Position numbers and translations under genes: made by a program. A stretch of DNA of 54,662 bases from a virus (lineage: Duplodnaviria; Caudoviricetes). A model generated the notes under the pieces. The model searched no databases and was not told the origin of the DNA. It saw only the letters and a program-made list of their open reading frames with translations. Of the stretch, positions 26,831-54,662 are shown piece by piece. The DNA lies in IMG/VR virus record IMGVR_UViG_3300043425_000063, positions 1 through 54,662 of that record; one strand, 5' to 3'. The stretch's first letter is position 1. Every line of letters begins with the position of its first letter.

Positions 26831-27010
26831 ATGAAGCGACTGTTCGCCCTGCGTGATAGCCGTGGAAACATTGTCCGTAACGAGGACAAGCAACCCATGT
26901 ACTTTGCCGACAAGCAAGCGGCAAGGAACTACCGAAGCAAGTTGACAAGTGAAGTCAACGTGTACTTCGTCACCTACGGCATTGACCATAAACTTTACAA
27001 AGGAAACTGA
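26831..27010 (+). CDS. 59-aa hypothetical protein
   Basis: AAGGAG RBS; MKRLFALRDS...YGIDHKLYKGN. Confidence 0.7.
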   Translation: MKRLFALRDSRGNIVRNEDKQPMYFADKQAARNYRSKLTSEVNVYFVTYGIDHKLYKGN

Positions 27011-27011
27011 C

Positions 27012-34326: not shown

Positions 34327-34708
34327 GTACTTCATAAAGAATCCGCTTGCCACACCAAAAGAAGTTGGTGCGAAGTTCAAGGTAGCCATGCCTATCGTGT
34401 ACAAGATTCGCAAAGAGGTGATGCCTGTGGTGCAGGAAGAAAATGCGAAGGTCATTATTCAGACCAAGCCATTCGTGCCAAGCACCCGAGCCGATGACCT
34501 ACAAGTTGGCGGTGACCACTACAAGAACATGGGTGTCCAACCTTGGAAGGCTATGGAATCTTGGATGACACCCGAAGAATTCCGTGGGTTCTTAAAGGGT
34601 AACTCTATTAAATATCTTGCACGTTGCAATGCCAAGGGTGGCATTGACGACATCAAGAAAGCCAAGCACTACATCGAGAAACTTATCGAGGTGCGTGATG
34701 ATTCTTGA
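34298..34708 (+). CDS. DUF3310 (T7 gp1.7-like nucleotide kinase) domain protein
   Basis: QVGGDHY, FLKGNSIKYLAR..KGG.DD..KAKHY. Confidence 0.85.
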   Translation: MKSKSQKVREYFIKNPLATPKEVGAKFKVAMPIVYKIRKEVMPVVQEENAKVIIQTKPFVPSTRADDLQVGGDHYKNMGVQPWKAMESWMTPEEFRGFLKGNSIKYLARCNAKGGIDDIKKAKHYIEKLIEVRDDS

Positions 34709-34814: not shown

Positions 34815-35007
34815 CTACGAGTTCTTTGACTACGCAACCATCATGTTGCGTATGGACAAGTTGAACAAAGACATTCATCAAGACCTGTTGAACCACAAGT
34901 ATGCCGATGCTCGTGTCAAGTCGCAGGAACTCTTGTTTCAAACTCGGCTACTGAACCTGTGGATTACACAGGAGATTGAGAGAACCAATGGACATAGTAA
35001 CCATTGA
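34807..35007 (+). CDS. Hypothetical protein
   Basis: 66 aa, overlaps both neighbours. Confidence 0.55.
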   Translation: MINYEFFDYATIMLRMDKLNKDIHQDLLNHKYADARVKSQELLFQTRLLNLWITQEIERTNGHSNH

Positions 35008-37421: not shown

Positions 37422-38081
37422 ATGCGCCTTAGCCACTCCTACTCGTCCATTAAGTTGTATGAGAACTGCCCCTACCGCTACTTCCGTCAGCGTGTTGTCA
37501 AAGATGTTGTCGATGAGGGAGGTGAAGCCAGTAAGTATGGGGAACGCATCCACCAATATCTTGAGTATCGTTTGGCGAATGATGCTGTACTACCCCAAGA
37601 GGTGGCGCACTACGAACCATTGTGCCTATCGGTAAAACGAATTGCTGAGGGGGGTGAACTGCACATCGAGAAAGAACTGGTGCTTACCGAGAACCTTACA
37701 CCAACAGGTTGGTGGGATGCGGACGCATGGCTACGAAGTAAACTTGACATCCTTGTAATCAATGGTAACCTAGCCAATGTGATGGACTGGAAAACTGGCA
37801 AGCGAAATGCTGACCAGTTTCAGATGCAACTGTTCGCTGCGCAGGTGTTCAAGCACTTCCCTGATGTGCAGTCTGTGCGTACATCCTTGGTGTGGCTCAA
37901 GACGATGGAGATGGATACAGAAACTTATTTCCGTGCGGATGTCAATGCGATATGGGCCGATGTAATGAAGCGCATCCAACGCATCCACAGTTCGCTAGAG
38001 CATGACAACTGGCCTGCCCGACCATCGGGGCTATGCCGATTCTGCCCTGCTCGACACGATTGTGATTCGGCTAGGGTTTAA
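37422..38081 (+). CDS. Cas4-like PD-(D/E)XK exonuclease
   Basis: SYS...CP, G..IH, E, LD, DWKTGK, Q..L, CRFCP...C. Confidence 0.9.
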   Translation: MRLSHSYSSIKLYENCPYRYFRQRVVKDVVDEGGEASKYGERIHQYLEYRLANDAVLPQEVAHYEPLCLSVKRIAEGGELHIEKELVLTENLTPTGWWDADAWLRSKLDILVINGNLANVMDWKTGKRNADQFQMQLFAAQVFKHFPDVQSVRTSLVWLKTMEMDTETYFRADVNAIWADVMKRIQRIHSSLEHDNWPARPSGLCRFCPARHDCDSARV

Positions 38082-40382: not shown

Positions 40383-40778
40383 ATGAGTGTCAAAGGATTT
40401 TTTGGTAAAGGACTAGCGTCCCTGCTGCAAGCGCATCAAAGCGATATGAACCGTTCCATTGAAAATGTCCGTGTGGCTACTGACATGGAGCGCATGTTCG
40501 GCAACTGCTCACCCGCAGTCGTTGCGTTCAAGATTGAGAACGGCTTTGTTGTTCGCACTTGTGATATGCGTCGTGAGATGGAGGGTCACATGCAAGGTGG
40601 ATTCCACTACTGCAAAGACCATCAAGAAATAGCCGAACACATTATTGCCACCGAAGCCAAGCGCAAGTTAGGTCTAGGTGAACAACAAGAGATGTTTGCT
40701 GAACGTGCTTACCAAGCACAAACGCTCGTAGGTAGCGGCGGATTCGCTCAAGCCAAACGTGCAACCAATCGTATTTAA
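40383..40778 (+). CDS. Hypothetical protein
   Basis: GGAGG RBS; IENGFVV; contains QQEMF. Confidence 0.7.
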   Translation: MSVKGFFGKGLASLLQAHQSDMNRSIENVRVATDMERMFGNCSPAVVAFKIENGFVVRTCDMRREMEGHMQGGFHYCKDHQEIAEHIIATEAKRKLGLGEQQEMFAERAYQAQTLVGSGGFAQAKRATNRI

Positions 40779-41776: not shown

Positions 41777-42053
41777 TCCGCCTCTTGACTTTACAAAGGT
41801 TGAGGCGTTAAGGAAGCACATGTTGTTGACTACCAATGACATGGCTTCCCTGTTTGGTGTTAGTCGCATGACGTATTATGGATGGGTGCGGGGGAAGGAA
41901 CTCCGCAAATCCAATGACGCTACGGTGAGGGTGCTTCTCAAGAGGCTACTCAACATCATGGTCGAGGACAAGTGGCCTACACCTGATGTCATTGCGATGG
42001 AGCAACCACAACGGAAAGAACGCCTTGATGATTTATTGAAGCGTTTTGAATGA
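41760..42053 (+). CDS. XRE/Cro-like HTH regulator
   Basis: LR...LT..DMA.LFGVSR.TYY.W..G. Confidence 0.8.
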   Translation: MQMTPNPPLDFTKVEALRKHMLLTTNDMASLFGVSRMTYYGWVRGKELRKSNDATVRVLLKRLLNIMVEDKWPTPDVIAMEQPQRKERLDDLLKRFE

Positions 42054-42093
42054 GGAACATGGGGGGCATGTGCCCCCCAATAACGGGGGTTTT

Positions 42094-44958
42094 ATGGACA
42101 CGCTGAGTTTCTTTCAGCGGGTGCTACCGACAGAAGGACTGTACTGCATTGCGAGTTTTGAAGGCGACAACCCAAAACCACGACACGGCTACTTTGATTC
42201 AGTCGAAGCACTTGCTAAAGTTGCTCTTGCTCTAAATAGCAGGGGACAAAACACATACTACGCAATCTCTACGTTCACAGAGAAGCGTCGTAAGCAGGAG
42301 TTCGTCGAGCGCACGAAGGTGCTTGCCATCGACGTTGACTGCGGTATTGGTAAGAACGGAAAGCCTAAGCCGTTCAAGGATGCAAGCGAGGGAGCAAAGG
42401 CTCTCGTGACTTTCGTCCAAGCAGTTGGGCTACCCATGCCGATGATTGTATCGTCGGGCAATGGGCTACATGTTTACTGGATATTAGATGAGGCGATTGA
42501 GCCTGCACAGTGGAAGCCGTTAGCCAGTGCATTGAAGGCGGCTTGCCTTGATAAAGGATTCACACCCGACATTGGTGTTACGGGGGACAGTGCTCGTGTT
42601 CTGAGACCGATTGGATGTACTAACCCCCGTGGAGGAAAGACCGCTAAGTTGATACGAGATGCGCAGGATGTGACCTATGCGCAGTTGTGGGCAGTCCTCG
42701 AACCGTTTACACATGGCTCATCTTATGAGCCACCCGTTGAGCAGACACGTACCAACTCGTTGTTGGATAACCTAGCAGTCAAGCATGAGTACCAACCCGC
42801 AAACGCTGACAAGATTATTGAGTCCTGCCAACAGATTAAATGGGCAGTAGAGAATCAAGGGGATGTCCCCGAACCAATGTGGTACAACCTGATTGGAGTA
42901 GCCGCATTTTGTAGTGACCCTGAAGCCACTGCCATCAAGTGGTCTGAGCAACACCCCGGATACAGTCAACAAGCAACCATCAGTAAGTTGCACCATTGGA
43001 AGCAGGGCGCAACAGGCCCAGCAACCTGCCAAAAGTTTGAAGCCGAACACCCCGGTGGATGCAAGGGCTGCAAGTTCAAAGACAAGATTGGTAGCCCTGC
43101 CCGTCTAGGCACACAGTTCGCAGAAGTTAAATCAACGGCGGCAGTGACCGACCCCCTCGCTGCACAAATACCAGTACCCCGACCATTCAAACGTACCACT
43201 GACGGTATGAAGATGGTCATTGACGAAACCGATATTGACGTTTGTAAGTTCGACATCTACCCCATCGGCTACGGCAAAGATGAGGGTCTTGGTTATGAAG
43301 TAGTCCGCTACATGTGGCATCGTCCGCACGTTGGATGGACTGAACTTGTACTACGGCAGGCTCATCTTACTGATGGCAGTCGAGAGTTCTCAGGTGCGAT
43401 TGCTGACCAAGGCATCGTGTTGTTCAACAAAAATCAAACGGTACACTTCCAAATGCTTCTACGCTCATACATGGAGGAACTGAAGCAACGCCGAGGATTG
43501 ACCAACCTGTATTCGTCAATGGGTTGGAAAGCAAACTACAACGAGTTTGTGATTGGCAGTACGCTTCTCCGCCGGGACTCCACTGGCAACATCGCAACTG
43601 AAAACATTAACCTCGCTTCGGCAATCGGCAAGGTCACGGACGAGATGTATGGATGTCAGGGTTCCCTGCAAGAGTGGGTGAACTTCACCCGCATCCTCGA
43701 AACCGCAGACCTGAAACTCCACAAGTTCCTGATTGGCTTTGCCTTTGCTACACCACTGCTCAAGGTCAGCGGACTCAAGGGTTTGATTCTGTCCCTGTAC
43801 GGCAAGACTGGTGGCGGTAAGACGCTCGGTCAGTACATGATGCAGTCAGTGTGGGGCAATCCCGATACGCTCCACTTCGGTGGTAAGTTCACACAGAACG
43901 GTTTGTTCTCCCGCCTTGCACTACACGGCAACCTACCCATGACTGTGGACGAGTTGACTATGCTTGACCGTGAGGAAGCAGGCGACCTGATTTACTGGAC
44001 AAGTCAAGGGCGTGACAAGGCTAGGCTGAACCGCAACTCTGAGGAACGTGCCATTAAAGAGTGGGCAACCACCATGACGGTATCGACCAACGAATCGCTA
44101 CACAGTATGTTGTACGCAGGTGGTCATGCTACGGATGCTAAGTTAGCCCGACTGCTTGAGTTCAATGTTCACCCTCACCCACTGTTCACTAAAGGTAGTC
44201 AGGTAGGGCGACAGATTCATGCGTTTCTGATGGCGAACTACGGACACCCCGGACATGCGTTTATGCGGCAACTGCTGCCGCTTGGTGTCGATGCAATCAA
44301 AGCGATGTTGGAGCATGCCATCAATGAGTTCCCCAAGAAGTACGGCGTTCACTTTAGCGGCGACGAACGGTTTTGGGAGATTGGTTTGGTGCTATCTGAC
44401 CTCGGTAACCAACTTGCTAAAGAATACGGACTCATCCTATATGACCACCAAGACGCAACCGAGTGGGCACTGGGTGAACTGAAGTCCATGAAAACATCTG
44501 CGGCTACCAACCGTATGGATGCCTTCGATGCACTGGGCGAGTTCATCAACGAGAACATGGACGCAACTATCACGGTCATGCACACCCCGGGTCAGAAGCC
44601 TATGCGAGACAACAACCGTCCGTATATTGCAGACATCCTTGTACGCTACGACCTGTACCGCAAGACCTACGATGGGACATTCGATTCAGGCACGGTGCTT
44701 GTCGAGCGTACCAAACTACGCAAGTGGCTCAGTCAACGTGGCTATGACTACAAGCAATTTGTTCAGGAGTTTGAAGCCGAAGGCATCATTGCCACACCGA
44801 AATCACAGAAGGCGTACTTCGGTAAAGATGTTGGTATCAAAATTCCGCAGTGTTATGTAGTCGGCATCAACCTCAACCACCCACGTTTGCAGGGAATCTT
44901 GGATGACGCCGACCAATCCGTAAATGACCTAACCCACGGTCAACTCAAGGTCGTTTAA
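42094..44958 (+). CDS. Primase-helicase (AEP-type primase, PriCT-like region, DUF927-type helicase)
   Basis: DVD, SSGNGLHVYW, RVLR; Cys cluster; GKTGGGKT, VDE, STN, NYGH. Confidence 0.88.
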   Translation: MDTLSFFQRVLPTEGLYCIASFEGDNPKPRHGYFDSVEALAKVALALNSRGQNTYYAISTFTEKRRKQEFVERTKVLAIDVDCGIGKNGKPKPFKDASEGAKALVTFVQAVGLPMPMIVSSGNGLHVYWILDEAIEPAQWKPLASALKAACLDKGFTPDIGVTGDSARVLRPIGCTNPRGGKTAKLIRDAQDVTYAQLWAVLEPFTHGSSYEPPVEQTRTNSLLDNLAVKHEYQPANADKIIESCQQIKWAVENQGDVPEPMWYNLIGVAAFCSDPEATAIKWSEQHPGYSQQATISKLHHWKQGATGPATCQKFEAEHPGGCKGCKFKDKIGSPARLGTQFAEVKSTAAVTDPLAAQIPVPRPFKRTTDGMKMVIDETDIDVCKFDIYPIGYGKDEGLGYEVVRYMWHRPHVGWTELVLRQAHLTDGSREFSGAIADQGIVLFNKNQTVHFQMLLRSYMEELKQRRGLTNLYSSMGWKANYNEFVIGSTLLRRDSTGNIATENINLASAIGKVTDEMYGCQGSLQEWVNFTRILETADLKLHKFLIGFAFATPLLKVSGLKGLILSLYGKTGGGKTLGQYMMQSVWGNPDTLHFGGKFTQNGLFSRLALHGNLPMTVDELTMLDREEAGDLIYWTSQGRDKARLNRNSEERAIKEWATTMTVSTNESLHSMLYAGGHATDAKLARLLEFNVHPHPLFTKGSQVGRQIHAFLMANYGHPGHAFMRQLLPLGVDAIKAMLEHAINEFPKKYGVHFSGDERFWEIGLVLSDLGNQLAKEYGLILYDHQDATEWALGELKSMKTSAATNRMDAFDALGEFINENMDATITVMHTPGQKPMRDNNRPYIADILVRYDLYRKTYDGTFDSGTVLVERTKLRKWLSQRGYDYKQFVQEFEAEGIIATPKSQKAYFGKDVGIKIPQCYVVGINLNHPRLQGILDDADQSVNDLTHGQLKVV

Positions 44959-47900
44959 TCAGGGATGCCATTGAGTGTTTCTTCATCTACACCGTAGAGT
45001 CGAAGCATCTCTTTGGCTTCTGCCCGGCCTGACTTAGCGGAGGACTTGAGGCTACGTAGTGCCAGTGGCTTACGTGCTTCTTTGAACGCTTGGTTGACAG
45101 ACCTATCGAAGTTGCGAATCTCAAGGCGAGTACCCTTGGTGGATTCGTTCCAGTCTTTCACAAAGTCTTTGACGTTCTTCTCGGACTCAGGGTCACCTGA
45201 CAGTCTTGATGCAACCGCACGGCGTACAGCCTCAGTCTTAATCATGGACATATAGGCTTGTTCCTGTGAGTCTGCCATCATCCAATCCATCTGAGCCTGC
45301 GCACGGGATGGATACCATCCGAGTGCCTTACCCATAATCTCCCATGCCGTAGCGTTCTTTGCCACAACATATCCCTTGGAGTCGAGAATTGCACCAGTGT
45401 CTTGGAACTTCAAGGCTTCACCAAAGTTCTTGACCGCACGAACAGGCGCATCAGTCATAAGGCTAGATAGGCTTGAGCGACCAGTGACTACACCGGGGAT
45501 GGTGTTGGTAAAGTACTCAAGGCTACCCACGAGGAACGAGGTAGGTGCACCTGCAATGTTCACCACTTCACGGAGAAGTTCTTGCTTAGTGGCTGACGGT
45601 TTCAGTAGGCCCGTGCCGGGGACAATATCCCCAAGACCCAATCGGTTAGAGAATGACCAACCAGTGAAGTGGTCAAGCAAACCACGCATGATGATTGGGT
45701 TAATCTCAGCACCAAGTTCATCACCGAATACCGTGCGTGTCAGACGAGCAAACTCTTTTTCGATGGAGCCCATCTTTAGACCCAAGCGTTGAGCGATGCC
45801 GTCAACAACGTCCAAGATGTCGTCAGAACCCGGTAGTCCACGCACACCGGAGAGCAGAATCAATGACCCAAGCATGATGATGCGACCCTCGTAGTTCATG
45901 TTCTTCAACAATTGAACCATGAGAATCGGGTACTGCTTGTACATATAGATGAACGACTGGAGTCCACCACGGAAGAAAGCAGGGCGGTTGTACTGTGCGT
46001 AGTCACCTTGTGTGGCGTCCACGGCACGAGACGCAACTGCTCGGGCAGCGATGTCGGCTGCATTGTGGTCTACCCCAGAAGCGCGTTGGCGGTCATACTC
46101 ACCACGATATGCTGCTAGGAGAGTAGTACGGCGGTTGAACTGTTCCGAGTAGGAGAACGGAGCCATCCAAACCTTGACGAACTTTTGGAACGTAGGGTTA
46201 ACGAGGATGGCACGACCCCGACTTGTACCAGTCAAAGCGTTGAACTGGGCAGCATCAAGACGCTGCTCCTCAGTCATGGTGTACAGGAAGTTCAGTTCAG
46301 CAAACGTCAGACCATCTTTGTTGCGGTCTTTACCTGACTTCTGCAACTCCTTAATCTGTTGGTCGATGTAGTCGAGGTTGGCGTAGCGGAAACTACCTGC
46401 CTTCTTGGCGTACTCCAACAAGAGGTAGCCTGCACGACCTGCACCTAGCCCAACACCAAAGCCGTTCTTCGGATTGAACGAAGCAAGGTAAGCCCACGAG
46501 TTAGTCGGCAGCGAAAGCATCTGTGTGACACCCGTGGCGATAGAGCCACCGAGTTGAGCAAGAGCCGCCCATGTACGAGCAGCCACAGAGAACTCGTTGT
46601 TTGTCCAAATGTCATCCGCATGGATGATGTCGCCAGTGGATTCTTTCCAGTCGAGCAAAGACTTGGCACGTTCTTTGTACCAGTTGCCACGCTCTACCCG
46701 CTTACCATCCACCATCGTGACGGCATTGTCGTAGTAGAACTTCTCTTGGAAATACTCACGGGCTGCAATCTCTTTGGCAGGGCCAGTCGCACCTTCCCAC
46801 TTAGCCTTGAGTTCTTCAAGACGGGTAGGGTCGCCATACCAGTTACGGTTGTCCTCAAGAACTTCGTCGTACTGATGGCGGAACTCTTTGTTGGCTGCGG
46901 TGTAGGCTTGCTGCTCCAGATAGGCAGACGCACTCTTGACAACATCTTTGTCCCAGCCGGGTGTGCCTGCACGTTTCAGGTTTGCACGAGCACGAGTGTT
47001 CTGTGCCTGTGTTTTCTTGACAAGAATCTCCCGAGTTTGTGGGGTCAACTGAATACCAAGGCGAGACAAGGAATACATCACCTCGTCGTAGTGGAGGATG
47101 TCCACAAGCGCAGGGGTCTGCTCAGCCACGGAAGAAATTGCACGGAGTTTGACAGTCTGCAAGTTGTTGTCAACATCACGCATCTCGTACTCGCCTGCGA
47201 ACATGATGTCGAGTTCGTCTTGGAGTTCACGAGCATCTTTCTCGGTAGCGACCTTGCCATAGAACAGAGAGTCCTGCTGACCTTGGCGCAACTTGATAGG
47301 TACTTCCTGACCGTTGACTTCCTTGTAGGCTTGGATACGAACCTGCCAGTCACCCTCACGGATTAGCGGGACGTAAGAGCCAGCGATGGTTCGCTTGGCG
47401 TAGAACTGGTCATCATTGATAGACGCTGCAAACATGGTGCGTTCTTCGATGCGGCGCACCAATGCCCAAATGGAACTGTCGTTCACGTTGTCAAGGTCAG
47501 GGTCAACCTTGTTACGTAGTTTGTTCCGCAGGCCACGCACAAGCGTATCGACTTGCTCAGGGGTATACCCCTCAATCATTGTCTTTAGGTCGCCAAGGGC
47601 AAGGTCTTTATAGAACGAGCCACCAAACTTGTAGTTCAACCACTCGTCAGCATCTTCTTGTGCTGCCTCGCTCATGACGAAACGGTTGTTCTTGTACTCT
47701 GAATCTTTTAGGCGCATACGGTCGTATTGCTCGACCACATCTTTAATGAACTCTGTCTCTTGGGCAGTTAGACTCTCAGAGAACGCACTGGATATACCAG
47801 ACGTAACTGCTCGTTGCTGTTCGTGGATTGCGCCAAGATATTTACCGATGAGCACATCCACGGAGGATTTCGAGATGGCATCAAAGAACTCTAGGTAAAC

Positions 47901-50900
47901 CTTGTACTCGATGCTGTTACCCGTGTAGCGGATGATTCCGTTTTCATCTTCCTCAAGGGTTCCATCAACATCTTTGAACCAGTCCAATGAGGGCTGCATG
48001 TTCGGAGCCTCGTAGGTGGTCTCCGCCATACGCTTGGTATACGTCCGCTTGGTCATCTCAATGTTGCGGTCGTACTTGCTTTCGGTTTTCTTAAGACGCA
48101 ACTGGTACTCAAGACGGGCTTCCTCGTTCTGAGCCGTATCCAGTTTCTTTTGCAGACGAGCCATTTCACGAGCCTTGCCAGACTCAAGGGAAGCCAACTC
48201 AGCGTCACGCTGTGCAACCAGTTCAGCCTGATACTCAGGCGTCATTGGGCGTTCTTCAGTACCTTGTTGAACCATGAAGCCCTTACGGAACTCCTCAGGG
48301 GTAACCCTACCCATCTTCTTGAGTTCTTCAAAAGCCTCAGGGTTAATCTGCGGAGTGGGGTCTAGGTTGTTCGGGTCATAGAACACCACGTTCTGCATCT
48401 TCTGAATCTGATTGTCCGTGTACTGCCCCATCCGGCGCAACGTGGCATATGCCATGAGTTCACCGGAACGGACATTCTGTTCGGGAGTCAAACCACCACC
48501 AAAGCCCAAGAACTTAGCGTCATGGGCAATCTTAGTCATCTCAGCGTACTGAGTTTTCAGTTCAGTCTGACGAGCGGCTTGGTCTTGCAGGCGACTAAAG
48601 ATTTTGAAATATCCCTTGCTCTTACGGGCCATGTTGTCTTGCGTCTGGATTCCATCAAGAACTTTCTGTGTGACGTTACCCACGTTGGCAAGCACGCCCC
48701 TACCCTGCTTACGCATCTCGGCGGCTTTTTGTGAGGTGTTTACGATGTCACGGATAGAACGCTCAAGGTCACCGTAGATGGCAAAGTTACGGTTCGTAAA
48801 ATTCTGAGCAAAAAACGCAGAGCCTTGTGCCACAGATTGGGCAAAGCGCAACACTTCCATGTCGGACTTCTCGTTACCCAGTGCCTCAGTAATCTCCTTG
48901 AACATGCCAGAGGTGTTGACCTCGGAACGCCCAATGCCTTGACGCACGTACTTGCGTGATAGCCCAATCAGATAGCGAGCAGCGTCATCATTGAAGCGCA
49001 AGCCCATCTTATTGAGTTGGTCTTTCAACCAGTTCCAAAAGCGCAGGATAGTGTTGTTGTCGATGGCAGCAGCACGGTCAGCCAGTACTTCTTCAACGGC
49101 TTCGAGAAAGGGTATACCCTTACCATTCGCATAGACCGTGGCTTCTTGTGTCAGTTGCGGGTCAGAGTCAGCGATGAAGCGCAGAATCTTGTCGAGGGCT
49201 TGGCTGCTAAACAATCCACGGAAGCCAACGTGCCCAAGAGTTTCGTGGGCAATGATGAACCGAGCGTGTTCTTCCGAGTGGATGAAGTCGGCAAACAGTA
49301 CTACGTTGTCGCCCCATGCCATACCAGCAGCGTTGACTGCTTCAATGTCGCCATTCTTACGTGCCTTAGCGGCAGCCTCGAACAAAGTAGGATTACTCCT
49401 ACGCATATCTTGTATGTTGGCAAACACGCTTACACGCGGCTTACGAGCGTACTTGGAAATCACACGGGCTGCAAACAAGCGCAGTGGGCCGACCTTCATT
49501 GGATTCAGAGGCTTACCGTCCGCACGATAGGCACGCCAGTCGTCGTCGCTGTTGGGTTTACGGTCATAGAACGGGTCGAACTGGAGGTCATCCAGTGTCG
49601 TTTGATTCTCAGTTTCTTCAAGGTCACGCAGTTCTTTACGTGCTGCCTCATGCTTTTGCACAAAGTCAGTCTTGGTTGTTTTCTCCTCAGCCACCGTGTT
49701 GGGGATGAAGTAGGATGTGCCCGCAGGCTGAGTCACATAGGGATTACCCTTAGCATCAAAGAAGTCTTTGATAAGCCCACGCTTACCAACGAGGAAGTTG
49801 TCATCGACTACACCAGCGTAGTACTTCTTCAACTTGTCAATAAGTTGTGCTTTGTCATAGTACTGTGGGTTCGAGTCAATAAAGTTTGCCAAGCGTTCTT
49901 CGGCACTGATGTCCTCGTTGACTGCAACCACATCATCCTTAACCGCTTCTTGTGTGGTTTTAGCCCCGGGCACACGCACCTTCGCCATGACATTGGCATC
50001 GTTCAACAAGCCAGTGTCGGCAAGTAGGGCGTACAAACGGGACTTCGGAGAAATGGATTCTTGGTCGAGCGCAACTTCACGCAGCGCATCGGTGTAATCT
50101 ATCTTAGATACACCACCCTCAGGGTCTGTCAAGAAGTTGGCAGCAGTCTTACGCAAGTAGGTACGGTCTGCCCCAAAGACATAAGCCGACACAATATCGT
50201 ACAGAGCCTCTGCGTAAGCAGCAGCGTTCTTGGTTGTCTCAGCAGTCTCGATAGCCATATCGAGTTCTTCGTTTGCAGCCACAGTCTCAGCACTTGCTTC
50301 CTGTGCACCACGCTTAACAGGTTGGCTTTCCACAACCGCAGGCTGTGTAGTCGTACCCATAAGTTGCCCGACCATTGCAGCAAGACCGCTAGGGCCACGT
50401 TGCAACTTAGCACCTGCGGGGGCTGCGGCCTTACCTGCCGCTTCAATCTTTTTTGCTGGGGCTTTCTTTAGAGCCTTACCCCCCTTAGGTGGGGGCGGAG
50501 GTGGTTCCTCCGTAGGCGTTACGGCTTCTTGCTTCTTCCCGCGCTTGAGAGACTTGCCGCCACCGCCTGCTTCAGTGCCGCCGCCTTGCTCTTGGGTCGT
50601 GGGCTGTTGCCCAGTTTGCCGCCCGCCTTGTACTCCCGCATTATCTTGCTGACGTTTTGGCTGACGACCTTGTTGCTGCTTCCTTTCTTGAGGGGCATTT
50701 GCTTCTCCTTGTGGTTCGGGTTGAACGAAGTCGCCTTCATCAAACTGTCCATCGAACACCGTACCGTCTACGTCCTCAAAACGACCAGTGCCATGCGGCA
50801 GACCGTCCTTGAACTGACCAGTGTAGGTGGATGTGTCAGAGTAAATCAGCGTACCTTGACCGCTAGGTACGCCCTTCTTGAGTTGGCCTGTATATACAGA

Positions 50901-53270
50901 ACCATCCTCGAAGTTCAACGTACCAGACTTCTGTTTCTTGAGTGCTTCGCCTCGTGCAGCCTGTGAAGTAACGGCAGTGACTGGCGCACCAGTCGGAGGA
51001 ATCTGAGCCGCACCTTGTTCAACAGTCGGAACAACTTGTTGCGGTGCAGCAGCACTACGCAAAGCAGCCACGGTAGGCTGACCTTGCTGAGTAAACATCG
51101 CCATCTGTGGTGAACTACGCAAGTCAACCCGTGGAGTAACTGGAGCACCAGTAGGGGCAGGCAACTGAGTACCCACACCACGGCGCAAACCTTCTGCACG
51201 AGAAGGACGAGGAGCCTCACGACGACTAAACAATTCCAGTTGTTGCGGTGCACGTACAGGCAGCGGCTTTGTAGGAAGTTGTTGTGGTGTCTGTTGCTGT
51301 TGTGCGGCCCGCTGTTCTTGCAACGCTGCTTGTTGGGCAATTTCCAACTGACGCTGTGCTTGAGCAAGGTTGTTCATCCGAGCAAGGTCTGCCTCACGTT
51401 GGGCTGCTTGTTCGGCTTGCATACGCTCCTGAGCCTGACGACTTTGCGCCAAGTTCATTTGCTGCTGCATGATAGGGTTAACCACAGGGGCGGCTTGGTC
51501 GGTAAAGCCAACACCACCCGGTGCAGGTGGCGCAAACTGGAGAGCCAACTGATTAGGGTCAGGGGTTAGATTCGGAGGGCCAACTTGAGCCGCTAGTTCT
51601 TGAGGAGTGACATCTCGGAATGATTGAGTAGTGACATCCCACACCTGTTGTGGACGCACATTGCCTTGCATGCTGCGAGCCTTGGCTTCAGCAACGGGAA
51701 TACCACCGAGGTCAAGCACACCTTGTGCACCACCGAACTGGTTGGGTTGTACCTCACCTGTGTAGATACGGTCACCCGGAGTAGAGCGACGGACACCTTC
51801 TGCGCCAGCCACAAAGTCAGGGCGTGCACCCATACCACCAGCAGGGGTCGGGCCACCGACAGGAGTGATTTCAACAGACTCGGAGGTGGGTGGTGGGACT
51901 TGCTGATTACCTTTAAGAAGGTCAGTTTCGTTGCGACCAATCGGGCCACGGCGAAGGTTTGCACCTGCACCAAGTACACCGCCGACACCAAAGCCAGCAG
52001 CAAAAGATTCGAGAAGGCGTTTGCGAACATCGGCATCACCAAAGTCCTGTCCAGTCATGCCAACCAGCAGGCTTTCCTGTCCGAGTTCAGTTGCGCCCTC
52101 AGCAGTACCACCAACAATCAACCCTTTGCCGCCTCGCTTGAGCAGTTCTGCACCACGAAGTCCTTGCGTCCCCAAGAAAGTCTTACCTTGGATGTCTTGG
52201 AGATTCGTTGCTCCACCTCTAGCGGACAGACCACCACGACCAAACAGACGGGATGCAAGTAAAAATTCAGGGAGGGATTCAAGGACGGCATAGGGAACTG
52301 CGCCAGACAAAGCGGCAAGACGAGCGTTGGCGTCATCGGCTCCTACTCCTTGTTCACGGAACTCCCCATAAATATCAGCAGCACCAGTGGCATAGTTCTG
52401 TGCCACGCTGGTAATGGTTGCGCCTGCAATACCAGCCGCTTCACGCAGCAGTTTGGTTTCGGCAGCATCAAGGACTTCACCTGCCGCACGTTTTTTTAGG
52501 GCAGCAAGTACGGATTGTTTGAAAGTTTCTTTACCCGCGAGTGATGCCAAGGACACACCTGCACCTGCAAGTGGGCCACCAGCGGCAGAACCAGCAAAAA
52601 AGCCTGCGGCAGCAGTACCGACAGACTCAAGAATATTTGGGCCTTGTTGGGCAACCGTTGCAGCCAACCACTCAATCGCACCACGGGTGGAGTCAATGTC
52701 ACTGAACTCACGACGGTAGGGCAAATTCTTACGCAAGTCCTCCATCTGTTGGTCAACAATACCCTGACCAATCTGCTCAGCACCAGCAAGTTGTAATCCA
52801 CGACCAGCAAGCAGTTGTAACTGGTCAACGCCAATACCGAAGTTCTTGGACATAAGACGCCCAAGACTCGGATTACGGATTGTGTTGGCTAGTTGCCCGT
52901 AGGACTCAGGAGTTAAAGCAATCCAGTCACCACCTTGAGGTAGCCCCACAGAAGGTTGTCCAAGTAATTGCTCGGCACGCAGGGTCATATCGGCGTCGTC
53001 CTCTGCGAACGTCACGCCTTGTACAAACAACTCTTTCTTTGACGGGCTATATGCAATCGCAGGTGGTTTCTTCATCTGCGGCATTTCAAACTGCGTAGCC
53101 CGCTGACCCATTGCGCCAATGGTAGCGATGTCGGCTAGACCTCTCTGAAGTGCATCAGCCCCACTAGACGCAGCAGGGTTTAGAAAGGTGTAGCCACTCA
53201 TGTCACTGGCAATCGAGCCGCCAGAATCCGCATACAGAGGATTTTCAAATGATGTGGCTTTAGTTGCCAT
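44955..53270 (-). CDS. Giant polyvalent internal virion/ejection protein (2771 aa)
   Basis: Gly/Ala hydrophobic N-part, Q/P linker, MORN repeats, HETLGH...EE zincin motif, YVPLIREG (PLxRFG-like), helical C-terminus; last gene of the late arm. Confidence 0.85.
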   Translation of the reverse strand: MATKATSFENPLYADSGGSIASDMSGYTFLNPAASSGADALQRGLADIATIGAMGQRATQFEMPQMKKPPAIAYSPSKKELFVQGVTFAEDDADMTLRAEQLLGQPSVGLPQGGDWIALTPESYGQLANTIRNPSLGRLMSKNFGIGVDQLQLLAGRGLQLAGAEQIGQGIVDQQMEDLRKNLPYRREFSDIDSTRGAIEWLAATVAQQGPNILESVGTAAAGFFAGSAAGGPLAGAGVSLASLAGKETFKQSVLAALKKRAAGEVLDAAETKLLREAAGIAGATITSVAQNYATGAADIYGEFREQGVGADDANARLAALSGAVPYAVLESLPEFLLASRLFGRGGLSARGGATNLQDIQGKTFLGTQGLRGAELLKRGGKGLIVGGTAEGATELGQESLLVGMTGQDFGDADVRKRLLESFAAGFGVGGVLGAGANLRRGPIGRNETDLLKGNQQVPPPTSESVEITPVGGPTPAGGMGARPDFVAGAEGVRRSTPGDRIYTGEVQPNQFGGAQGVLDLGGIPVAEAKARSMQGNVRPQQVWDVTTQSFRDVTPQELAAQVGPPNLTPDPNQLALQFAPPAPGGVGFTDQAAPVVNPIMQQQMNLAQSRQAQERMQAEQAAQREADLARMNNLAQAQRQLEIAQQAALQEQRAAQQQQTPQQLPTKPLPVRAPQQLELFSRREAPRPSRAEGLRRGVGTQLPAPTGAPVTPRVDLRSSPQMAMFTQQGQPTVAALRSAAAPQQVVPTVEQGAAQIPPTGAPVTAVTSQAARGEALKKQKSGTLNFEDGSVYTGQLKKGVPSGQGTLIYSDTSTYTGQFKDGLPHGTGRFEDVDGTVFDGQFDEGDFVQPEPQGEANAPQERKQQQGRQPKRQQDNAGVQGGRQTGQQPTTQEQGGGTEAGGGGKSLKRGKKQEAVTPTEEPPPPPPKGGKALKKAPAKKIEAAGKAAAPAGAKLQRGPSGLAAMVGQLMGTTTQPAVVESQPVKRGAQEASAETVAANEELDMAIETAETTKNAAAYAEALYDIVSAYVFGADRTYLRKTAANFLTDPEGGVSKIDYTDALREVALDQESISPKSRLYALLADTGLLNDANVMAKVRVPGAKTTQEAVKDDVVAVNEDISAEERLANFIDSNPQYYDKAQLIDKLKKYYAGVVDDNFLVGKRGLIKDFFDAKGNPYVTQPAGTSYFIPNTVAEEKTTKTDFVQKHEAARKELRDLEETENQTTLDDLQFDPFYDRKPNSDDDWRAYRADGKPLNPMKVGPLRLFAARVISKYARKPRVSVFANIQDMRRSNPTLFEAAAKARKNGDIEAVNAAGMAWGDNVVLFADFIHSEEHARFIIAHETLGHVGFRGLFSSQALDKILRFIADSDPQLTQEATVYANGKGIPFLEAVEEVLADRAAAIDNNTILRFWNWLKDQLNKMGLRFNDDAARYLIGLSRKYVRQGIGRSEVNTSGMFKEITEALGNEKSDMEVLRFAQSVAQGSAFFAQNFTNRNFAIYGDLERSIRDIVNTSQKAAEMRKQGRGVLANVGNVTQKVLDGIQTQDNMARKSKGYFKIFSRLQDQAARQTELKTQYAEMTKIAHDAKFLGFGGGLTPEQNVRSGELMAYATLRRMGQYTDNQIQKMQNVVFYDPNNLDPTPQINPEAFEELKKMGRVTPEEFRKGFMVQQGTEERPMTPEYQAELVAQRDAELASLESGKAREMARLQKKLDTAQNEEARLEYQLRLKKTESKYDRNIEMTKRTYTKRMAETTYEAPNMQPSLDWFKDVDGTLEEDENGIIRYTGNSIEYKVYLEFFDAISKSSVDVLIGKYLGAIHEQQRAVTSGISSAFSESLTAQETEFIKDVVEQYDRMRLKDSEYKNNRFVMSEAAQEDADEWLNYKFGGSFYKDLALGDLKTMIEGYTPEQVDTLVRGLRNKLRNKVDPDLDNVNDSSIWALVRRIEERTMFAASINDDQFYAKRTIAGSYVPLIREGDWQVRIQAYKEVNGQEVPIKLRQGQQDSLFYGKVATEKDARELQDELDIMFAGEYEMRDVDNNLQTVKLRAISSVAEQTPALVDILHYDEVMYSLSRLGIQLTPQTREILVKKTQAQNTRARANLKRAGTPGWDKDVVKSASAYLEQQAYTAANKEFRHQYDEVLEDNRNWYGDPTRLEELKAKWEGATGPAKEIAAREYFQEKFYYDNAVTMVDGKRVERGNWYKERAKSLLDWKESTGDIIHADDIWTNNEFSVAARTWAALAQLGGSIATGVTQMLSLPTNSWAYLASFNPKNGFGVGLGAGRAGYLLLEYAKKAGSFRYANLDYIDQQIKELQKSGKDRNKDGLTFAELNFLYTMTEEQRLDAAQFNALTGTSRGRAILVNPTFQKFVKVWMAPFSYSEQFNRRTTLLAAYRGEYDRQRASGVDHNAADIAARAVASRAVDATQGDYAQYNRPAFFRGGLQSFIYMYKQYPILMVQLLKNMNYEGRIIMLGSLILLSGVRGLPGSDDILDVVDGIAQRLGLKMGSIEKEFARLTRTVFGDELGAEINPIIMRGLLDHFTGWSFSNRLGLGDIVPGTGLLKPSATKQELLREVVNIAGAPTSFLVGSLEYFTNTIPGVVTGRSSLSSLMTDAPVRAVKNFGEALKFQDTGAILDSKGYVVAKNATAWEIMGKALGWYPSRAQAQMDWMMADSQEQAYMSMIKTEAVRRAVASRLSGDPESEKNVKDFVKDWNESTKGTRLEIRNFDRSVNQAFKEARKPLALRSLKSSAKSGRAEAKEMLRLYGVDEETLNGIPD
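50519..50698 (-). CDS. Nested out-of-frame gene: 59-aa basic MPLKKG-type protein
   Basis: AAGGAG RBS 6 nt before ATG; MPLKKGSSNKVVSQNVSKIMREYKAGG...KQAVAASLSSAGRSKKP. Confidence 0.7.
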   Translation of the reverse strand: MPLKKGSSNKVVSQNVSKIMREYKAGGKLGNSPRPKSKAAALKQAVAASLSSAGRSKKP

Positions 53271-53278
53271 AATTCACC

Positions 53279-54662
53279 TTACCTAACTTCTTGTTGAGGA
53301 GTATTGACAATGCTCCAAATACTCCTATCGACTCCGGCAACACGCTGTGCTCGCGGGCCAACATCGAGTTTGACCCCGTTGACTTCAACCTGATTGTTGA
53401 GAGTATCGACCACAAAAATATCGCCAAGACCATTGCTGTAAGTTACTTTACCATCCGAAGCACCCGTAGCGACAGCCTTAAAGCCAGCCAGTTTGAGTTT
53501 TTCTTCAGCAAGTTTAGTATTGCCTTTGATAACTTCGAGTTGGATTTCACGAGCAGTTTGAAGAACTTGTTTACTGGCTTCTTCTTCCCTACGCAGACCA
53601 GACTTAAATGCTTCTGTACCGCGCTCGGCTTGAATAGTTGCGAGTTGTTTGCGGTACTCAGCATCCACTTGTGTCTTAACGAGTAGTTCAATTTGCTTTC
53701 CGTCCAAACCAGCCTTAGCCACTTTACCGTTGATATACAAATCGAAGTTCCCATCAGGGCGTTGTAAGACTTGATGCGGTGCACCAGTAAACGTCGAGAG
53801 TACAGATAGGGCACGGCTGTAATTACCAGTCGTGGCTCCTTCATACACACCGATGTCGGCTTGGTTCTTGTATAGACCCATGTCAAGGGCTTGAATCTTG
53901 GCAGCAGCCTCAATAGCCTTATCGCCCATACCATACTGATTAAACAAAGTTACTTGGCGTTGCAAGATTGCACGCTGTTGTAGGGTCTGTTGAATCAGCG
54001 GATTGCGAGCAGACGGGTCAAGCGTAGCCGAGCCGTACATCGTGCCACCCTCAGCAGGCTTAACAATATTGGCGGCTGCATTGGCAACTTGTGTAGGTGT
54101 CCCGGTCTGTACAGCGGTGTTGAGCGTAGCCACAGGGTTCGTAGCAGCAGCCGCAGCAGGCGCACGAGGTGGCGTTGCAGAAGCAACTGCGGTAAGCGGA
54201 GTATCTTTGTTGAACCCAAGAGCAATACCGTTATCAAGAGTACGCATGTCGTACGGCTGTTTACCATTCTCTTTCTGAATGATGGCGGTAATCAACTGCT
54301 TCATAACCGCAGGGTCTTGTACGTTGATAACGTCCGTAGCCTTAACACCCAACGCCGTAGAGACATCTTTGATGTATGCACCAGTGAGGTTTCTATCAGA
54401 CTCAGGAGCCCAGCGACTGATAATGCCTTGAACAGTATTGATACCTTGCTGGTTGTAACTCAGCAAGTTCAGCGTCATTGCACGGATACCAGCCTCAGGT
54501 GAGGAGAACTGAACAAAGCCAGCAGCCTCTTTTGACCCTTTGTCGATACCCACTTGACCTTGCCATGTGTACTGATTGCTTGGGCGAATGTTGCCGGGGT
54601 TGTTGTTAGCAAGACCACGTACTGGTTTACCCTTAGCATCTAACTGCCAATCAGCATAACCT
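53279..54662 (-). CDS. 3' part of the junction-spanning ~743-aa ejection protein with lysozyme-like domain
   Basis: NNPGNIR..F.SPEAGIRA..IISRWAP..YI..V..ENG. Confidence 0.85.
   Translation of the reverse strand, partial: GYADWQLDAKGKPVRGLANNNPGNIRPSNQYTWQGQVGIDKGSKEAAGFVQFSSPEAGIRAMTLNLLSYNQQGINTVQGIISRWAPESDRNLTGAYIKDVSTALGVKATDVINVQDPAVMKQLITAIIQKENGKQPYDMRTLDNGIALGFNKDTPLTAVASATPPRAPAAAAATNPVATLNTAVQTGTPTQVANAAANIVKPAEGGTMYGSATLDPSARNPLIQQTLQQRAILQRQVTLFNQYGMGDKAIEAAAKIQALDMGLYKNQADIGVYEGATTGNYSRALSVLSTFTGAPHQVLQRPDGNFDLYINGKVAKAGLDGKQIELLVKTQVDAEYRKQLATIQAERGTEAFKSGLRREEEASKQVLQTAREIQLEVIKGNTKLAEEKLKLAGFKAVATGASDGKVTYSNGLGDIFVVDTLNNQVEVNGVKLDVGPRAQRVAGVDRSIWSIVNTPQQEVR
54471..54662. repeat. 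Terminal overlap, right copy
   Basis: Matches 1-192 with one mismatch. Confidence 0.95.

What the first reader, a model, noticed from the sequence alone, without database searches (positions are those of the whole stretch)
51093..51725. Four sliding-clamp-binding-like motifs in the disordered linker of the ejected protein
Seen: QGVLDL (51708-51725), QLALQF (51534-51551), QLELF (51228-51242) and QMAMF (51093-51107), spaced through a Q/P/A-rich linker that otherwise has few hydrophobic clusters. Established: beta-clamp (DnaN) ligands are QL[SD]LF pentamers and QLxLxL/F hexamers. Inference: a virion-delivered multivalent clamp binder could sequester host clamps or tether the incoming genome to them before any phage gene is expressed. 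No clamp gene is recognisable in the genome, and another protein (40383..40778) contains QQEMF.
Basis: partly seen in the sequence, partly recalled or inferred. Interest (0 to 1): 0.7.

Follow-up and report, generated by a model that had tools for sequence, protein, structure and literature searches.

The report
Clamp-binding motif array in phage giant
A giant phage protein that is probably carried in the virion has, in its floppy linker, conserved short motifs that look like the ones bacterial proteins use to grip the DNA sliding clamp, so it may dock onto the host replication machinery; binding has not been tested.

Summary
All four motifs are at the stated coordinates in a 2771-aa ORF (44955..53270, minus strand). 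This is a PLxRFG-type giant protein at the end of the structural module of a roughly complete 54.7-kb phage genome.

They are not chance. In 15 related viral loci all four persist. Positions 1, 4 and 5 are held, with synonymous codon changes, while position 3 drifts. In the relatives at 62-63% identity, motif 4 reads QLSLF in all four and motif 3 in three.

Among 102 family representatives, Qxx[LM]F occurs 151 times in the linker against 8.7±2.9 in shuffles. Reversed and near-miss patterns are not enriched. 82 copies sit at non-homologous positions, which points to motif turnover. AlphaFold2 puts all four motifs in low-confidence segments.

QLELF and QLALQF fit the published canonical clamp-binding definitions. 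QMAMF is near-canonical. QGVLDL is atypical, with G at position 2.

The phage has its own PolA and primase-helicase and no recognisable clamp. Tethering to host clamps seems more plausible than bulk sequestration. My verdict is a likely new variant of a known kind, with interest about 0.6.

The parts
44955..53270 (-). Giant gene, 2771 aa, one continuous ORF; full-length relatives are 2714-2835 aa
51951..53270 (-). N-terminal domain (aa 1-440), an all-helical bundle from about aa 65 with Gly/Ala-rich helices; no PDB fold match
   Evidence: AF2 with a 24-sequence alignment; Foldseek against pdb matched only the MORN part
51654..51953 (-). First low-confidence (predicted disordered) segment, aa 440-539. 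It holds motif 1, and in relatives it holds a variable swarm of QGELF/QGDLF/QMELF copies
51708..51725 (-). Motif 1, QGVLDL (aa 516-521). The family form is QG[VLI]L[DNP][LIV], often followed by F. It is atypical for a clamp motif (G at position 2)
   Evidence: (27 copies in 25 of 102 against 0.1 expected)
51534..51551 (-). Motif 2, QLALQF (aa 574-579), a hexamer of the QLxLxF type. The commonest family form is QGALQF
   Evidence: definition from PMC11139829
51297..51476 (-). Long Q/A-rich helix (aa 599-658, block-mean pLDDT about 61-84), a possible coiled coil inside the linker
51228..51242 (-). Motif 3, QLELF (aa 677-681), a canonical QLxLF pentamer. Relatives have QLSLF, QLDLF, QLPLF, QMSLF, QMPLF
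   Evidence: (35 of 102 representatives at this column)
51177..51197 (-). Conserved block AEGLRRG (aa 692-698) between motifs 3 and 4; function unknown and not explained by clamp binding
51093..51107 (-). Motif 4, QMAMF (aa 722-726), a near-canonical pentamer. Relatives have QLSLF, QMSLF, QVPLF, QLPLF, QLPMF
   Evidence: (33 of 102 at this column)
51051..51092 (-). Conserved block TQQGQPTVAALRSA (aa 727-740) directly after motif 4, with a short predicted helix at aa 734-741; function unknown
50721..50927 (-). MORN repeats (aa 782-850); absent from the relatives at 62-63% identity
   Evidence: Pfam PF02493, 36.5 bits against a cut-off of 22.5; AF2 and Foldseek
50376..50633 (-). Basic Lys/Ala/Pro/Gly-rich low-complexity segment (aa 880-965; 15 K+R against 6 D+E in 86 aa), predicted disordered
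49230..49247 (-). HETLGH (aa 1342-1347), an HEXXXH metal-site-like motif; H1342, E1343, G1346 and H1347 are invariant in 28 sequences
   Evidence: the HEXXXH variant of polyvalent-protein metallopeptidases is described in PMC5512222; the fold was not confirmed
45072..46325 (-). C-terminal PLxRFG domain (aa 2316-2733)
   Evidence: NCBIfam NF032893, 148 bits against a cut-off of 100; phrog_11358; tblastn hits to F116-like giant proteins
53279..54661 (-). Upstream neighbour, the C-terminal part of a transglycosylase-domain protein. Its 5' part lies at 3..1040 because the record is circularly permuted
40683..40697 (+).

Best explanation
The linker (aa ~440-790) of this giant PLxRFG-type protein carries an array of short linear motifs of the bacterial beta-clamp-binding class. 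I read the protein as a phage 'polyvalent' protein, probably packaged in the virion. The array has two pentamers (QLELF, QMAMF) 45 residues apart, one QLxLxF-type hexamer (QLALQF) and one atypical relative (QGVLDL).

Proposed mechanism, all inferred:
- Once the protein is in the host cytoplasm, the exposed motifs insert into the hydrophobic cleft of host DnaN.
- Several motifs on one chain, and possibly oligomerisation through the aa 599-658 helix, would give avidity. The motif 3/4 pair could occupy both clefts of one clamp ring.
- The outcome would be tethering of the protein, its other domains and perhaps the DNA end it accompanies to DNA-loaded clamps at or behind host forks. A side effect would be local competition with host polymerases and Hda.

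Shown here: the motifs exist, they are under motif-specific purifying selection, they are hugely enriched across the family, they turn over, and they lie in predicted disorder. Not shown: binding, virion packaging and ejection, and the downstream effect.
For: 1. Fit to definition. QLELF matches QLxLF and QLALQF matches QLxLxF, which the review gives as the highest-affinity consensus forms (PMC11139829, passages). 'QL[S/D]LF or more generally QxxLF', with positions 1, 4 and 5 critical, comes from PMC12309361 (passages).

2. Close relatives. In 16 of 16 sequences (window plus 15 loci, 62-84% identity in the N-domain) all four motifs persist. Motif 3 reads QLELF 11, QLSLF 3, QLDLF 1, QMPLF 1. Motif 4 reads QVPLF 6, QLSLF 4, QMAMF 2, QMSLF 2, QVPMF 2. 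The Q, L/M and F codons change synonymously (CAA/CAG, TTG/CTG/CTA/ATG, TTT/TTC) while position 3 is free. The linker around them takes large insertions in some loci.

3. Deep relatives. Q516, Q574, Q677 and Q722 are at least 90% conserved in 28 full-length sequences reaching 30% identity.

4. Family-wide, in residues 420-860 of 102 representatives of at least 900 aa. Qxx[LM]F occurs 151 times in 68 of 102 against 8.7±2.9. The controls are reverse 3, Nxx[LM]F 0, Exx[LM]F 3, Qxx[LM]Y 1 and Qxx[AG]F 15 against 20.7. Q[LMIV]x[LMIV]F occurs 84 times against 3.0±1.7, and outside the linker 22 against 16.0. Position 4 is L 63 and M 21, never I or V although both were allowed; position 2 is L 51, M 24. 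For hexamers, Qxx[LM]xF occurs 57 times against 8.5 and its reverse 7 against 8.5.

5. Turnover. Of 150 copies, 35 and 33 lie at the two homologous columns. The other 82 lie at 42 other positions in 48 proteins, mostly Qx[DE][LM]F in the first disordered segment. That is the form reported for the experimentally clamp-binding MuC/Mor family (bioRxiv 10.1101/2025.01.04.631326, passages).

6. Accessibility. All four motifs lie in AF2 segments with pLDDT below 50.

7. Specificity. There are 0 such motifs in 8166 residues of F116 p59, F116 p60 and USP_18 gp31, which are other PLxRFG-phage giants. The rest of this phage's proteome is near chance for the stricter pattern, 2 against 1.07. A look-alike in the neighbouring gene is kept in only 3 of 9 relatives.

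8. Context. The gene ends the structural module, just after a transglycosylase-domain protein, with an internal-virion-protein homologue further upstream in the same module.
Against:
- Only 47 of 102 representatives have the stricter pentamer. Presence falls with distance from the query: 17/17, 12/17, 5/17, 4/17, 5/17, 4/17 by rank block. The array is therefore not a universal feature of the family.
- QGVLDL and the commonest family form of motif 2 (QGALQF) have Gly at position 2, outside the canonical definition. Pentamers ending in L are not enriched, 8 against 8.3.
- Sequence next to the motifs is conserved as strongly as the motifs (AEGLRRG at aa 692-698; TQxGxPxxAAxKxA at aa 727-740). A 5-6 residue clamp motif does not need this, so the region has at least one further, unknown function.
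- The representatives are homologues, so shuffle statistics overstate independence.
- The phage encodes its own PolA, primase-helicase, SNF2 helicase and exonuclease, so it has no obvious need for the host clamp in replication.
- Virion packaging is inferred, not shown.
Confidence: 0.6

Rival explanations
1. The motifs serve a phage-internal function: docking of the giant protein to portal, scaffold or capsid during packaging, or recognition sites for a maturation protease (possibly its own HEXXXH domain). On this view the likeness to clamp-binding motifs is coincidental.
For: The gene lies in the late structural module. Flanking blocks conserved with the motifs suggest larger recognition elements. 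An invariant HEXXXH motif sits in the same polypeptide, and autoprocessing of polyvalent proteins has been proposed (PMC5512222, passages).
Against: The pattern matches the clamp motif at every critical position and in its tolerated variation. Copy number and position turn over, with 82 copies at 42 non-homologous positions, which is unlike fixed assembly or cleavage sites. F116-type PLxRFG giants, which face the same packaging problem, have none.
Confidence: 0.15
2. The motifs bind a different host hub protein through a Gln-anchored hydrophobic peptide, for example an envelope, periplasmic or other cytoplasmic partner used during entry, in the way colicin translocation domains carry linear epitopes (recalled analogy).
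For: The motifs form a multivalent array in a disordered region of a probable entry protein. Two of the four motifs have a non-canonical Gly at position 2. The host is unknown.
Against: I know of no other bacterial hub that recognises Q-phi-x-[LM]-F (recalled, not searched for exhaustively). The preference at position 3 for D, S, E and P, and the L/M-only position 4, reproduce clamp-motif statistics.
Confidence: 0.15
3. The protein acts through clamp sequestration or replication shut-off: it titrates clamps in bulk, as proposed for over-expressed MuC, rather than being localised by them. This shares the clamp-binding step with the best explanation and differs only in the downstream effect, so its confidence lies within that of the best explanation rather than adding to it.
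For: Multivalency. Precedents are MuC toxicity through its clamp motif (10.1101/2025.01.04.631326, passages) and Twort gp168 / G1 gp240 listed as DnaN-targeting shut-off proteins (PMC3594737, table passage).
Against: An internal virion protein is delivered in few copies, whereas clamps are present in hundreds per cell (recalled orders of magnitude, not computed here). The gene is in the late module, so high intracellular levels arise only late. The motifs are absent from many family members.
Confidence: 0.1
4. The motifs are chance or compositional artefacts of a Q-rich low-complexity linker.
For: The linker has 47 Gln in 311 residues. The four-motif pattern was assembled after the fact, and the strict QL[SD]LF does not occur in this protein.
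Against: Shuffles that keep composition give 8.7±2.9 against 151 observed. Reversed and near-miss patterns are at or below expectation. Key positions are kept with synonymous codon changes.
Confidence: 0.02

Closest known systems
Clamp-binding motifs of bacterial replication and repair proteins (Pol III alpha, Pol II, Pol IV, Hda, MutS and others)
   Same: The sequence class is the same: Q-phi-x-[L/M]-[F/L] and Q-phi-x-[L/M]-x-[F/L]. Positions 1, 4 and 5 are conserved, and the motifs sit in disordered regions (PMC11139829; PMC12309361).
   Different: Here there are up to four or five copies in one internal linker of a phage structural-module protein, not a single terminal or loop motif on a DNA enzyme. 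No enzyme domain that would use a clamp was recognised in the protein.
Phage Mu MuC/Mor transcription activators
   Same: A phage protein with an experimentally supported clamp motif (QHDLF). Its family consensus Qx[D/E][L/M]F (10.1101/2025.01.04.631326, passages) is the form that dominates the first disordered segment in relatives of the giant protein.
   Different: MuC is a small, newly synthesised transcription factor with one N-terminal motif. The protein here is a 2771-aa probable virion protein with an array, and there is no homology between them.
Mobile-element clamp binders: IS transposases, Tn7 TnsE, RK2 TrfA
   Same: These are mobile-element proteins that convergently acquired QLxLF-type motifs, often in unstructured sequence and at different positions in homologues (PMC4549789, passages; TnsE and TrfA as cited).
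   Different: Those proteins act on DNA (transposition, initiation) and usually have one C-terminal motif. None is delivered from a virion.
Staphylococcal phage proteins Twort gp168 and G1 gp240
   Same: Phage proteins reported to target DnaN and shut off host replication (table passage in PMC3594737).
   Different: They are small proteins made after infection. Their sequences were not compared here, and no motif array or virion association is reported in the passages read.
Polyvalent proteins of phages and conjugative elements (Iyer, Burroughs, Anand, de Souza & Aravind 2017); PLxRFG giant proteins of F116-like phages
   Same: A giant multidomain protein in a phage structural module, with a C-terminal PLxRFG domain (NF032893) and an HEXXXH motif like one described variant of the polyvalent metallopeptidases.
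   Different: The main text of that paper never mentions clamps (0 occurrences). F116 p59, F116 p60 and USP_18 gp31 carry no such motifs. The N-domain, the linker array and the MORN repeats are particular to this family.

Membership tests
Beta-clamp (DnaN) ligands carrying a clamp-binding motif | Sequence fits Q-phi-x-[L/M]-[F/L] or Q-phi-x-[L/M]-x-[F/L] (PMC11139829) | tested here: met
   QLELF and QLALQF fit exactly. QMAMF fits if Met counts as the position-2 aliphatic residue. QGVLDL does not fit at position 2 (Gly).
Beta-clamp (DnaN) ligands carrying a clamp-binding motif | Positions 1, 4 and 5 conserved in homologues while position 3 varies | tested here: met
   Q is at least 90% conserved at all four sites; position 4 is L 63 / M 21; position 3 is P, D, S, E or A; synonymous codon changes occur at the key positions.
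Beta-clamp (DnaN) ligands carrying a clamp-binding motif | Motif accessible (disordered region, terminus or loop) | tested here: met
   AF2 pLDDT is below 50 around all four motifs. This is a prediction from a 24-sequence alignment, not a measurement.
Beta-clamp (DnaN) ligands carrying a clamp-binding motif | Physical binding in the hydrophobic cleft of DnaN, lost on mutation of the motif and competed by known ligands | not testable with these tools
No complex fold was attempted by other means, and the host is unknown.
PLxRFG domain-containing giant phage proteins (NCBIfam NF032893) | C-terminal domain scoring above the curated cut-off | tested here: met
   148 bits against a cut-off of 100, aa 2316-2733; phrog_11358 at 5.9e-39; tblastn to 39 phage records at 24-28% identity.
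Polyvalent proteins (Iyer et al. 2017) | Zincin-like metallopeptidase domain (HEXXH or HEXXXH) or other catalogued LPD domains | tested here: inconclusive
   HETLGH is invariant in 28 sequences. No Pfam MPTase or LPD hit passes a cut-off: LPD26 at E=0.029, and LPD23 only as a rank-25 atlas lead. The AF2 model of aa 1191-1511 has pLDDT 42.8 and is unusable. The paper's supplementary domain tables could not be seen.
Virion-internal / ejected proteins of podovirus-like phages | Presence in virions and release into the cell at infection | not testable with these tools
   Only context is available. It is the last gene of the structural module, after a transglycosylase-domain protein, with an internal-virion-protein homologue (phrog_511) further upstream in that module. 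Homologous C-terminal domains are annotated 'structural protein' in some phage records.
MORN repeat proteins | Pfam PF02493 above the gathering score, with a beta-hairpin repeat fold | tested here: met
   36.5 bits against 22.5; AF2 strands at aa 782-849 with block-mean pLDDT about 75-82; the top Foldseek matches are MORN proteins.

The most novel reading that the evidence does not exclude
A widespread family of giant phage proteins is injected with the DNA and uses a multivalent, evolutionarily plastic array of clamp-binding motifs to seize DNA-loaded host sliding clamps within moments of infection, before any phage gene is expressed. This would be the first virion-delivered ligand of the bacterial replisome hub. 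It would either park the entering genome and its effector domains at host replication forks, or stall those few forks by avid two-cleft binding of the motif 3/4 pair, which lies 42-50 residues apart in 16 of 37 neighbouring motif pairs.
Probability: 0.3. Interest if true: 0.8.

Novelty: new variant of a known kind. Interest (0 to 1): 0.62.

Why it matters
Clamp-binding motifs are known in host enzymes, transposases, a plasmid initiator and, recently, phage Mu transcription factors. I found nothing in the held literature that places them in a virion or ejected protein, or in 'polyvalent' giant proteins (searches; 0 mentions of 'clamp' in PMC5512222).

If the motifs bind DnaN, three things follow:
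- The function of a large, uncharacterised phage protein family becomes approachable (240 clusters at E≤1e-3).
- There would be a case of a phage targeting the replisome hub at the moment of entry.
- Nature would have supplied a set of multivalent clamp ligands, which is of interest because the clamp cleft is an antibacterial target.

The claim can be tested directly with peptides and purified DnaN, even without the unknown host.

Tried and rejected
- **Complex prediction.** I sent E. coli DnaN x2 with aa 666-732 as an alignment.
- **Host identification.**
  - The genome-contig scan found only four MAG contigs, labelled Verrucomicrobiota (2), Burkholderiaceae (a 56-kb contig of phage-genome size) and Armatimonadia. 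These are mutually inconsistent and probably binned phage DNA.
  - The window has no tRNA.
  - Megablast of 15 kb against the phage collection gave no match.
- **PDB profile search of the 28-sequence alignment.** Nothing below E=0.1.
- **Foldseek of the aa 1-960 model.** Only the MORN part matched; the N-domain stays unassigned.
- **AF2 of the HEXXXH region with an 8-sequence alignment.** pLDDT 42.8, so no fold search was run on it.
- **Pfam at E≤1 on three middle segments and three relatives.** Nothing useful.
- **The motif 3/4 block in shorter proteins.** Only contig-truncated fragments of the same family came up, so it is not a portable module seen elsewhere.
- **Rejected: the motif array is a general property of PLxRFG giants.** There are 0 motifs in 8166 aa of F116 and USP_18 proteins.
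- **Rejected as chance: QVTLF in the upstream neighbour.** It is kept in 3 of 9 relatives.
- **First alignment for the genome scan.** Too divergent; I re-sent a smaller one.

Full report
**1. What the window is**

The window is a whole virus record: 54,662 bp, estimated 99% complete, ends not repeated.

The minus strand of roughly 1-24 kb carries a structural module:
- terminase, 21986..23371;
- portal/adaptor, 19566..21614;
- major head protein, 17337..18242;
- tail-fibre-like genes;
- an internal-virion-protein homologue, 4524..7142;
- an endolysin.

The plus strand of 27-45 kb carries a replication and nucleotide module:
- AAA ATPase;
- DUF2201 metallopeptidase/VWA protein;
- an Nmad5-like protein;
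- family-A DNA polymerase, 34976..36865;
- PD-(D/E)XK exonuclease;
- SNF2 helicase;
- primase-helicase, 42046..44958.

The record is circularly permuted. A transglycosylase-domain gene starts at 1040, runs off base 1 and continues at 54661..53279. The 2771-aa ORF 53270..44955 follows directly, so it is the last gene of the structural module.

**2. The observation**

The linker aa 480-790 is Q/A/P-rich with 8 Phe, and 3 of them close a motif.

Taken alone, this protein gives only modest statistics:
- two loose pentamers against 0.04 expected (P=0.0005);
- one QLxLx[LF] against 0.019 (P=0.019);
- none of the strict QL[SD]LF.

Lumping the four motifs into one pattern is post hoc.

**3. Close relatives**

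A scan of viral contigs with the N-domain returned 15 loci. Eleven are at 80-84% identity and four at 62-63%. Eleven of the 15 hold a full-length ORF of 2714-2835 aa.

All four motifs are present in all 16 sequences:
- Motif 1: QGVLDL in 15, QGVIDL in 1.
- Motif 2: QLALQF in 10, QMALQF in 6.
- Motif 3: QLELF 11, QLSLF 3, QLDLF 1, QMPLF 1.
- Motif 4: QVPLF 6, QLSLF 4, QMAMF 2, QMSLF 2, QVPMF 2.

Position 3 is free. Position 2 moves among L, M and V. Position 4 stays L or M. Positions 1 and 5 never change, yet their codons do (CAA/CAG; TTT/TTC; TTG/CTG/CTA/ATG at position 4). In the more distant group motif 4 is the textbook consensus QLSLF in all four loci, and motif 3 is QLSLF in three. The surrounding linker accepts large insertions in some loci.

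**4. The wider family**

A full-library phmmer search with aa 1-800 found 240 cluster representatives at E≤1e-3. 150 were listed, and 102 of those are at least 900 aa.

In a 28-sequence full-length alignment reaching 30% identity, Q516, Q574, Q677 and Q722 are each at least 90% conserved. A second, 24-sequence alignment agrees and adds L680.

Counts in residues 420-860 of the 102 representatives:

| Pattern | Observed | Shuffle expectation |
|---|---|---|
| Q[LMIV]x[LMIV]F | 84, in 47 proteins | 3.0±1.7 (max 11 in 1000) |
| same pattern, outside the linker | 22 | 16.0±4.0 |
| Qxx[LM]F | 151, in 68 proteins | 8.7±2.9 |
| reversed F[LM]xxQ | 3 | 8.7 |
| Nxx[LM]F | 0 | 2.9 |
| Exx[LM]F | 3 | 6.9 |
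| Qxx[LM]Y | 1 | 3.4 |
| Qxx[AG]F | 15 | 20.7 |
| hexamer Qxx[LM]xF | 57, in 46 proteins | 8.5 |
| reversed hexamer | 7 | 8.5 |
| QG[VLI]L[DNP][LIV] (motif 1 form) | 27, in 25 proteins | 0.1 |
| pentamers ending in L | 8 | 8.3 |

Within the 84 loose pentamers:
- position 4 is L 63 and M 21, and never I or V although the pattern allowed both;
- position 2 is L 51, M 24, I 5, V 4;
- position 3 is P 30, D 18, S 10, E 9, A 7.

Mapped on a 103-sequence alignment, 35 and 33 representatives have the motif at the columns of motifs 3 and 4, and 27 have both. A further 82 copies lie at 42 other positions in 48 proteins. 54 of those are in the first disordered segment, mostly as QGELF, QGDLF, QMELF or QQELF. 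One representative has five pentamers in its linker. Neighbouring pentamers are 42-50 residues apart in 16 of 37 cases.

Results against the reading:
- The stricter pentamer is found in 17/17 and 12/17 of the closest rank blocks but only 4-5 of 17 in the remoter ones.
- The sequences are homologues, so shuffles overstate independence.
- Two adjacent blocks are conserved as strongly as the motifs: AEGLRRG (aa 692-698) and TQxGxPxxAAxKxA (aa 727-740).

**5. Disorder**

AlphaFold2 on aa 1-960 with a 24-sequence alignment gave mean pLDDT 55.5. It shows:
- a helical N-domain, aa ~65-440;
- pLDDT below 50 at aa 440-539, 563-598, 660-687, 700-723 and 741-781, which covers all four motifs;
- a small element at aa 540-562;
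- a confident long helix at aa 599-658;
- MORN strands at aa 782-849;
- disorder again from aa 853.

Foldseek matched only MORN proteins.

**6. Comparison with the definition**

The review of the beta-clamp defines canonical motifs as Q-phi-x-[L/M]-[F/L] and Q-phi-x-[L/M]-x-[F/L]. It names QLxLF and QLxLxF as the tightest forms, calls Gln important, and says position 2 is less restricted (PMC11139829, passages read). A 2025 paper gives 'QL[S/D]LF or more generally QxxLF', with positions 1, 4 and 5 critical (PMC12309361, passages).

By these rules:
- QLELF and QLALQF are canonical.
- QMAMF is near-canonical.
- QGVLDL is atypical.

In some relatives the column of motif 1 holds a true pentamer (QGEMF, QGDLF, QGIMF). 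The common family form QGVLD[IV]F adds a terminal Phe.

A preprint on phage Mu shows that MuC binds the clamp through QHDLF. It reports Qx[D/E][L/M]F as the consensus of the Mor/C family (10.1101/2025.01.04.631326, passages). That is the same form as the extra copies in this family.

**7. Specificity controls**

- F116 p59, F116 p60 and the part of USP_18 gp31 held, which belong to phages whose giant proteins share the PLxRFG domain, have 0 pentamers and 0 hexamers in 8166 residues.
- The other 44 ORFs of the window (12,948 residues) have 2 loose pentamers against 1.07 expected, and 6 Qxx[LM]F against 1.9±1.3.
- One of these, QVTLF in the upstream neighbour, is kept in 3 of 9 relatives.

**8. 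The rest of the protein**

- Pfam finds only MORN.
- NCBIfam places the C-terminus (aa 2316-2733) in the PLxRFG family, 148 bits against a cut-off of 100.
- HETLGH at aa 1342-1347 is invariant. It has the HEXXXH spacing that the polyvalent-protein paper describes for one set of its metallopeptidases (PMC5512222, passages).
- I could not confirm that fold.
- The papers that mention PLxRFG give no tested function.

**9. Interpretation**

The simplest account of a Gln-anchored, L/M-F-terminated motif is a beta-clamp-binding array. The motif is position-3-free, repeated, turning over and embedded in disorder.

I put about 0.6 on DnaN binding. Within that, I favour tethering or localisation, possibly with avid two-cleft binding by the motif 3/4 pair, over bulk sequestration. 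My reasons are that such proteins are delivered in few copies (recalled) and that the phage brings its own polymerase and no recognisable clamp.

The conserved flanking blocks show the region does something more than bind a clamp. Virion delivery rests on gene position only.

**10. What could not be done**

- The host is unresolved.
- Supplementary files, such as the domain tables of PMC5512222 and figure S1 of PMC11139829, could not be read and may bear on whether this family or such motifs were catalogued.

In the held library I found no paper linking clamp-binding motifs to virion, ejected or polyvalent phage proteins:
- 'clamp-binding motif' + phage + virion gave 0 papers.
- 'clamp binding motif' + bacteriophage gave 16 papers, none on this by title.
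- 'sliding clamp' + DnaN + 'phage protein' + inhibit gave 3 papers.
- PLxRFG gave 5 papers.

**11. Verdict**

It is a new variant of a known kind, with interest 0.62.

Noticed in passing
window 3..1040 and 53279..54661 (minus strand): The record is circularly permuted. A transglycosylase-domain gene (phrog_873 hits on both parts) is split by the record's ends and lies directly upstream of the giant gene.
   Followed up: partly
window 40383..40778 (+), aa 101-105: QQEMF in a 131-aa protein of the replication module. Qxx[LM]F is present in 99 of 120 homologues (QQEMF 71, QQELF 11, QQDMF 10). 13 homologues have [LIV]xEH[YL] at the same place, and the other 8 lack the motif (7 of them with a shorter, different tail). 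The site looks like part of a helix, so its status as a clamp motif is doubtful.
   Followed up: yes
window 26949..27998 (+), C-terminus: The MoxR-like AAA ATPase ends in ...HQDVLF-stop, a C-terminal QxxLF. Of 80 related loci (75-99% identity) a tail was found in 69. 63 of those keep HQ[DEN][VI]LF and 6 have HSDVLF. The relatives are too close to judge.
   Followed up: partly
window 49230..49247 (minus strand; aa 1342-1347 of the giant protein): An invariant HETLGH (HEXXXH) with surrounding invariant residues, a possible polyvalent-type metallopeptidase. There is no Pfam hit and the AF2 model failed.
   Followed up: partly
window 50376..50633 (minus strand; aa 880-965): A basic Lys/Ala/Pro/Gly-rich low-complexity stretch (15 K+R against 6 D+E in 86 aa) just after the MORN repeats. 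It is reminiscent of histone-H1-like DNA-binding tails (recalled analogy).
   Followed up: no
L011, L012, L014, L015 compared with window aa 782-850: The MORN repeat block is missing from the relatives at 62-63% identity. L005, L006, L007, L010 and L013 have a long insertion, and L008 a shorter one, elsewhere in the linker.
   Followed up: no
P0007 (1176 aa, 53.9-kb contig) and P0157 (1160 aa, 54.8-kb contig): These N-terminal, linker-containing proteins of about 1170 aa sit on near-genome-length contigs. In some relatives the giant gene may be split or frameshifted after the linker/MORN part.
   Followed up: no
window 37422..38081 (+) aa 134; 42046..44958 (+) aa 617: QMQLF in the PD-(D/E)XK exonuclease and QNGLF in the primase-helicase. 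Both are probably inside folded domains. Conservation was not checked.
   Followed up: no
window 31604..32233, 33769..34326, 34298..34708 (+): An Nmad5-like protein (below the Pfam cut-off), an HslV-family peptidase homologue and a nucleotide-kinase-like protein in the replication module hint at nucleotide or DNA modification.
   Followed up: no
L016-L019 (genome contigs): Family members appear only on MAG contigs labelled Verrucomicrobiota, Burkholderiaceae and Armatimonadia. One contig is 56.4 kb, the size of a phage genome, so these are probably binned phage contigs rather than evidence of host.
   Followed up: no
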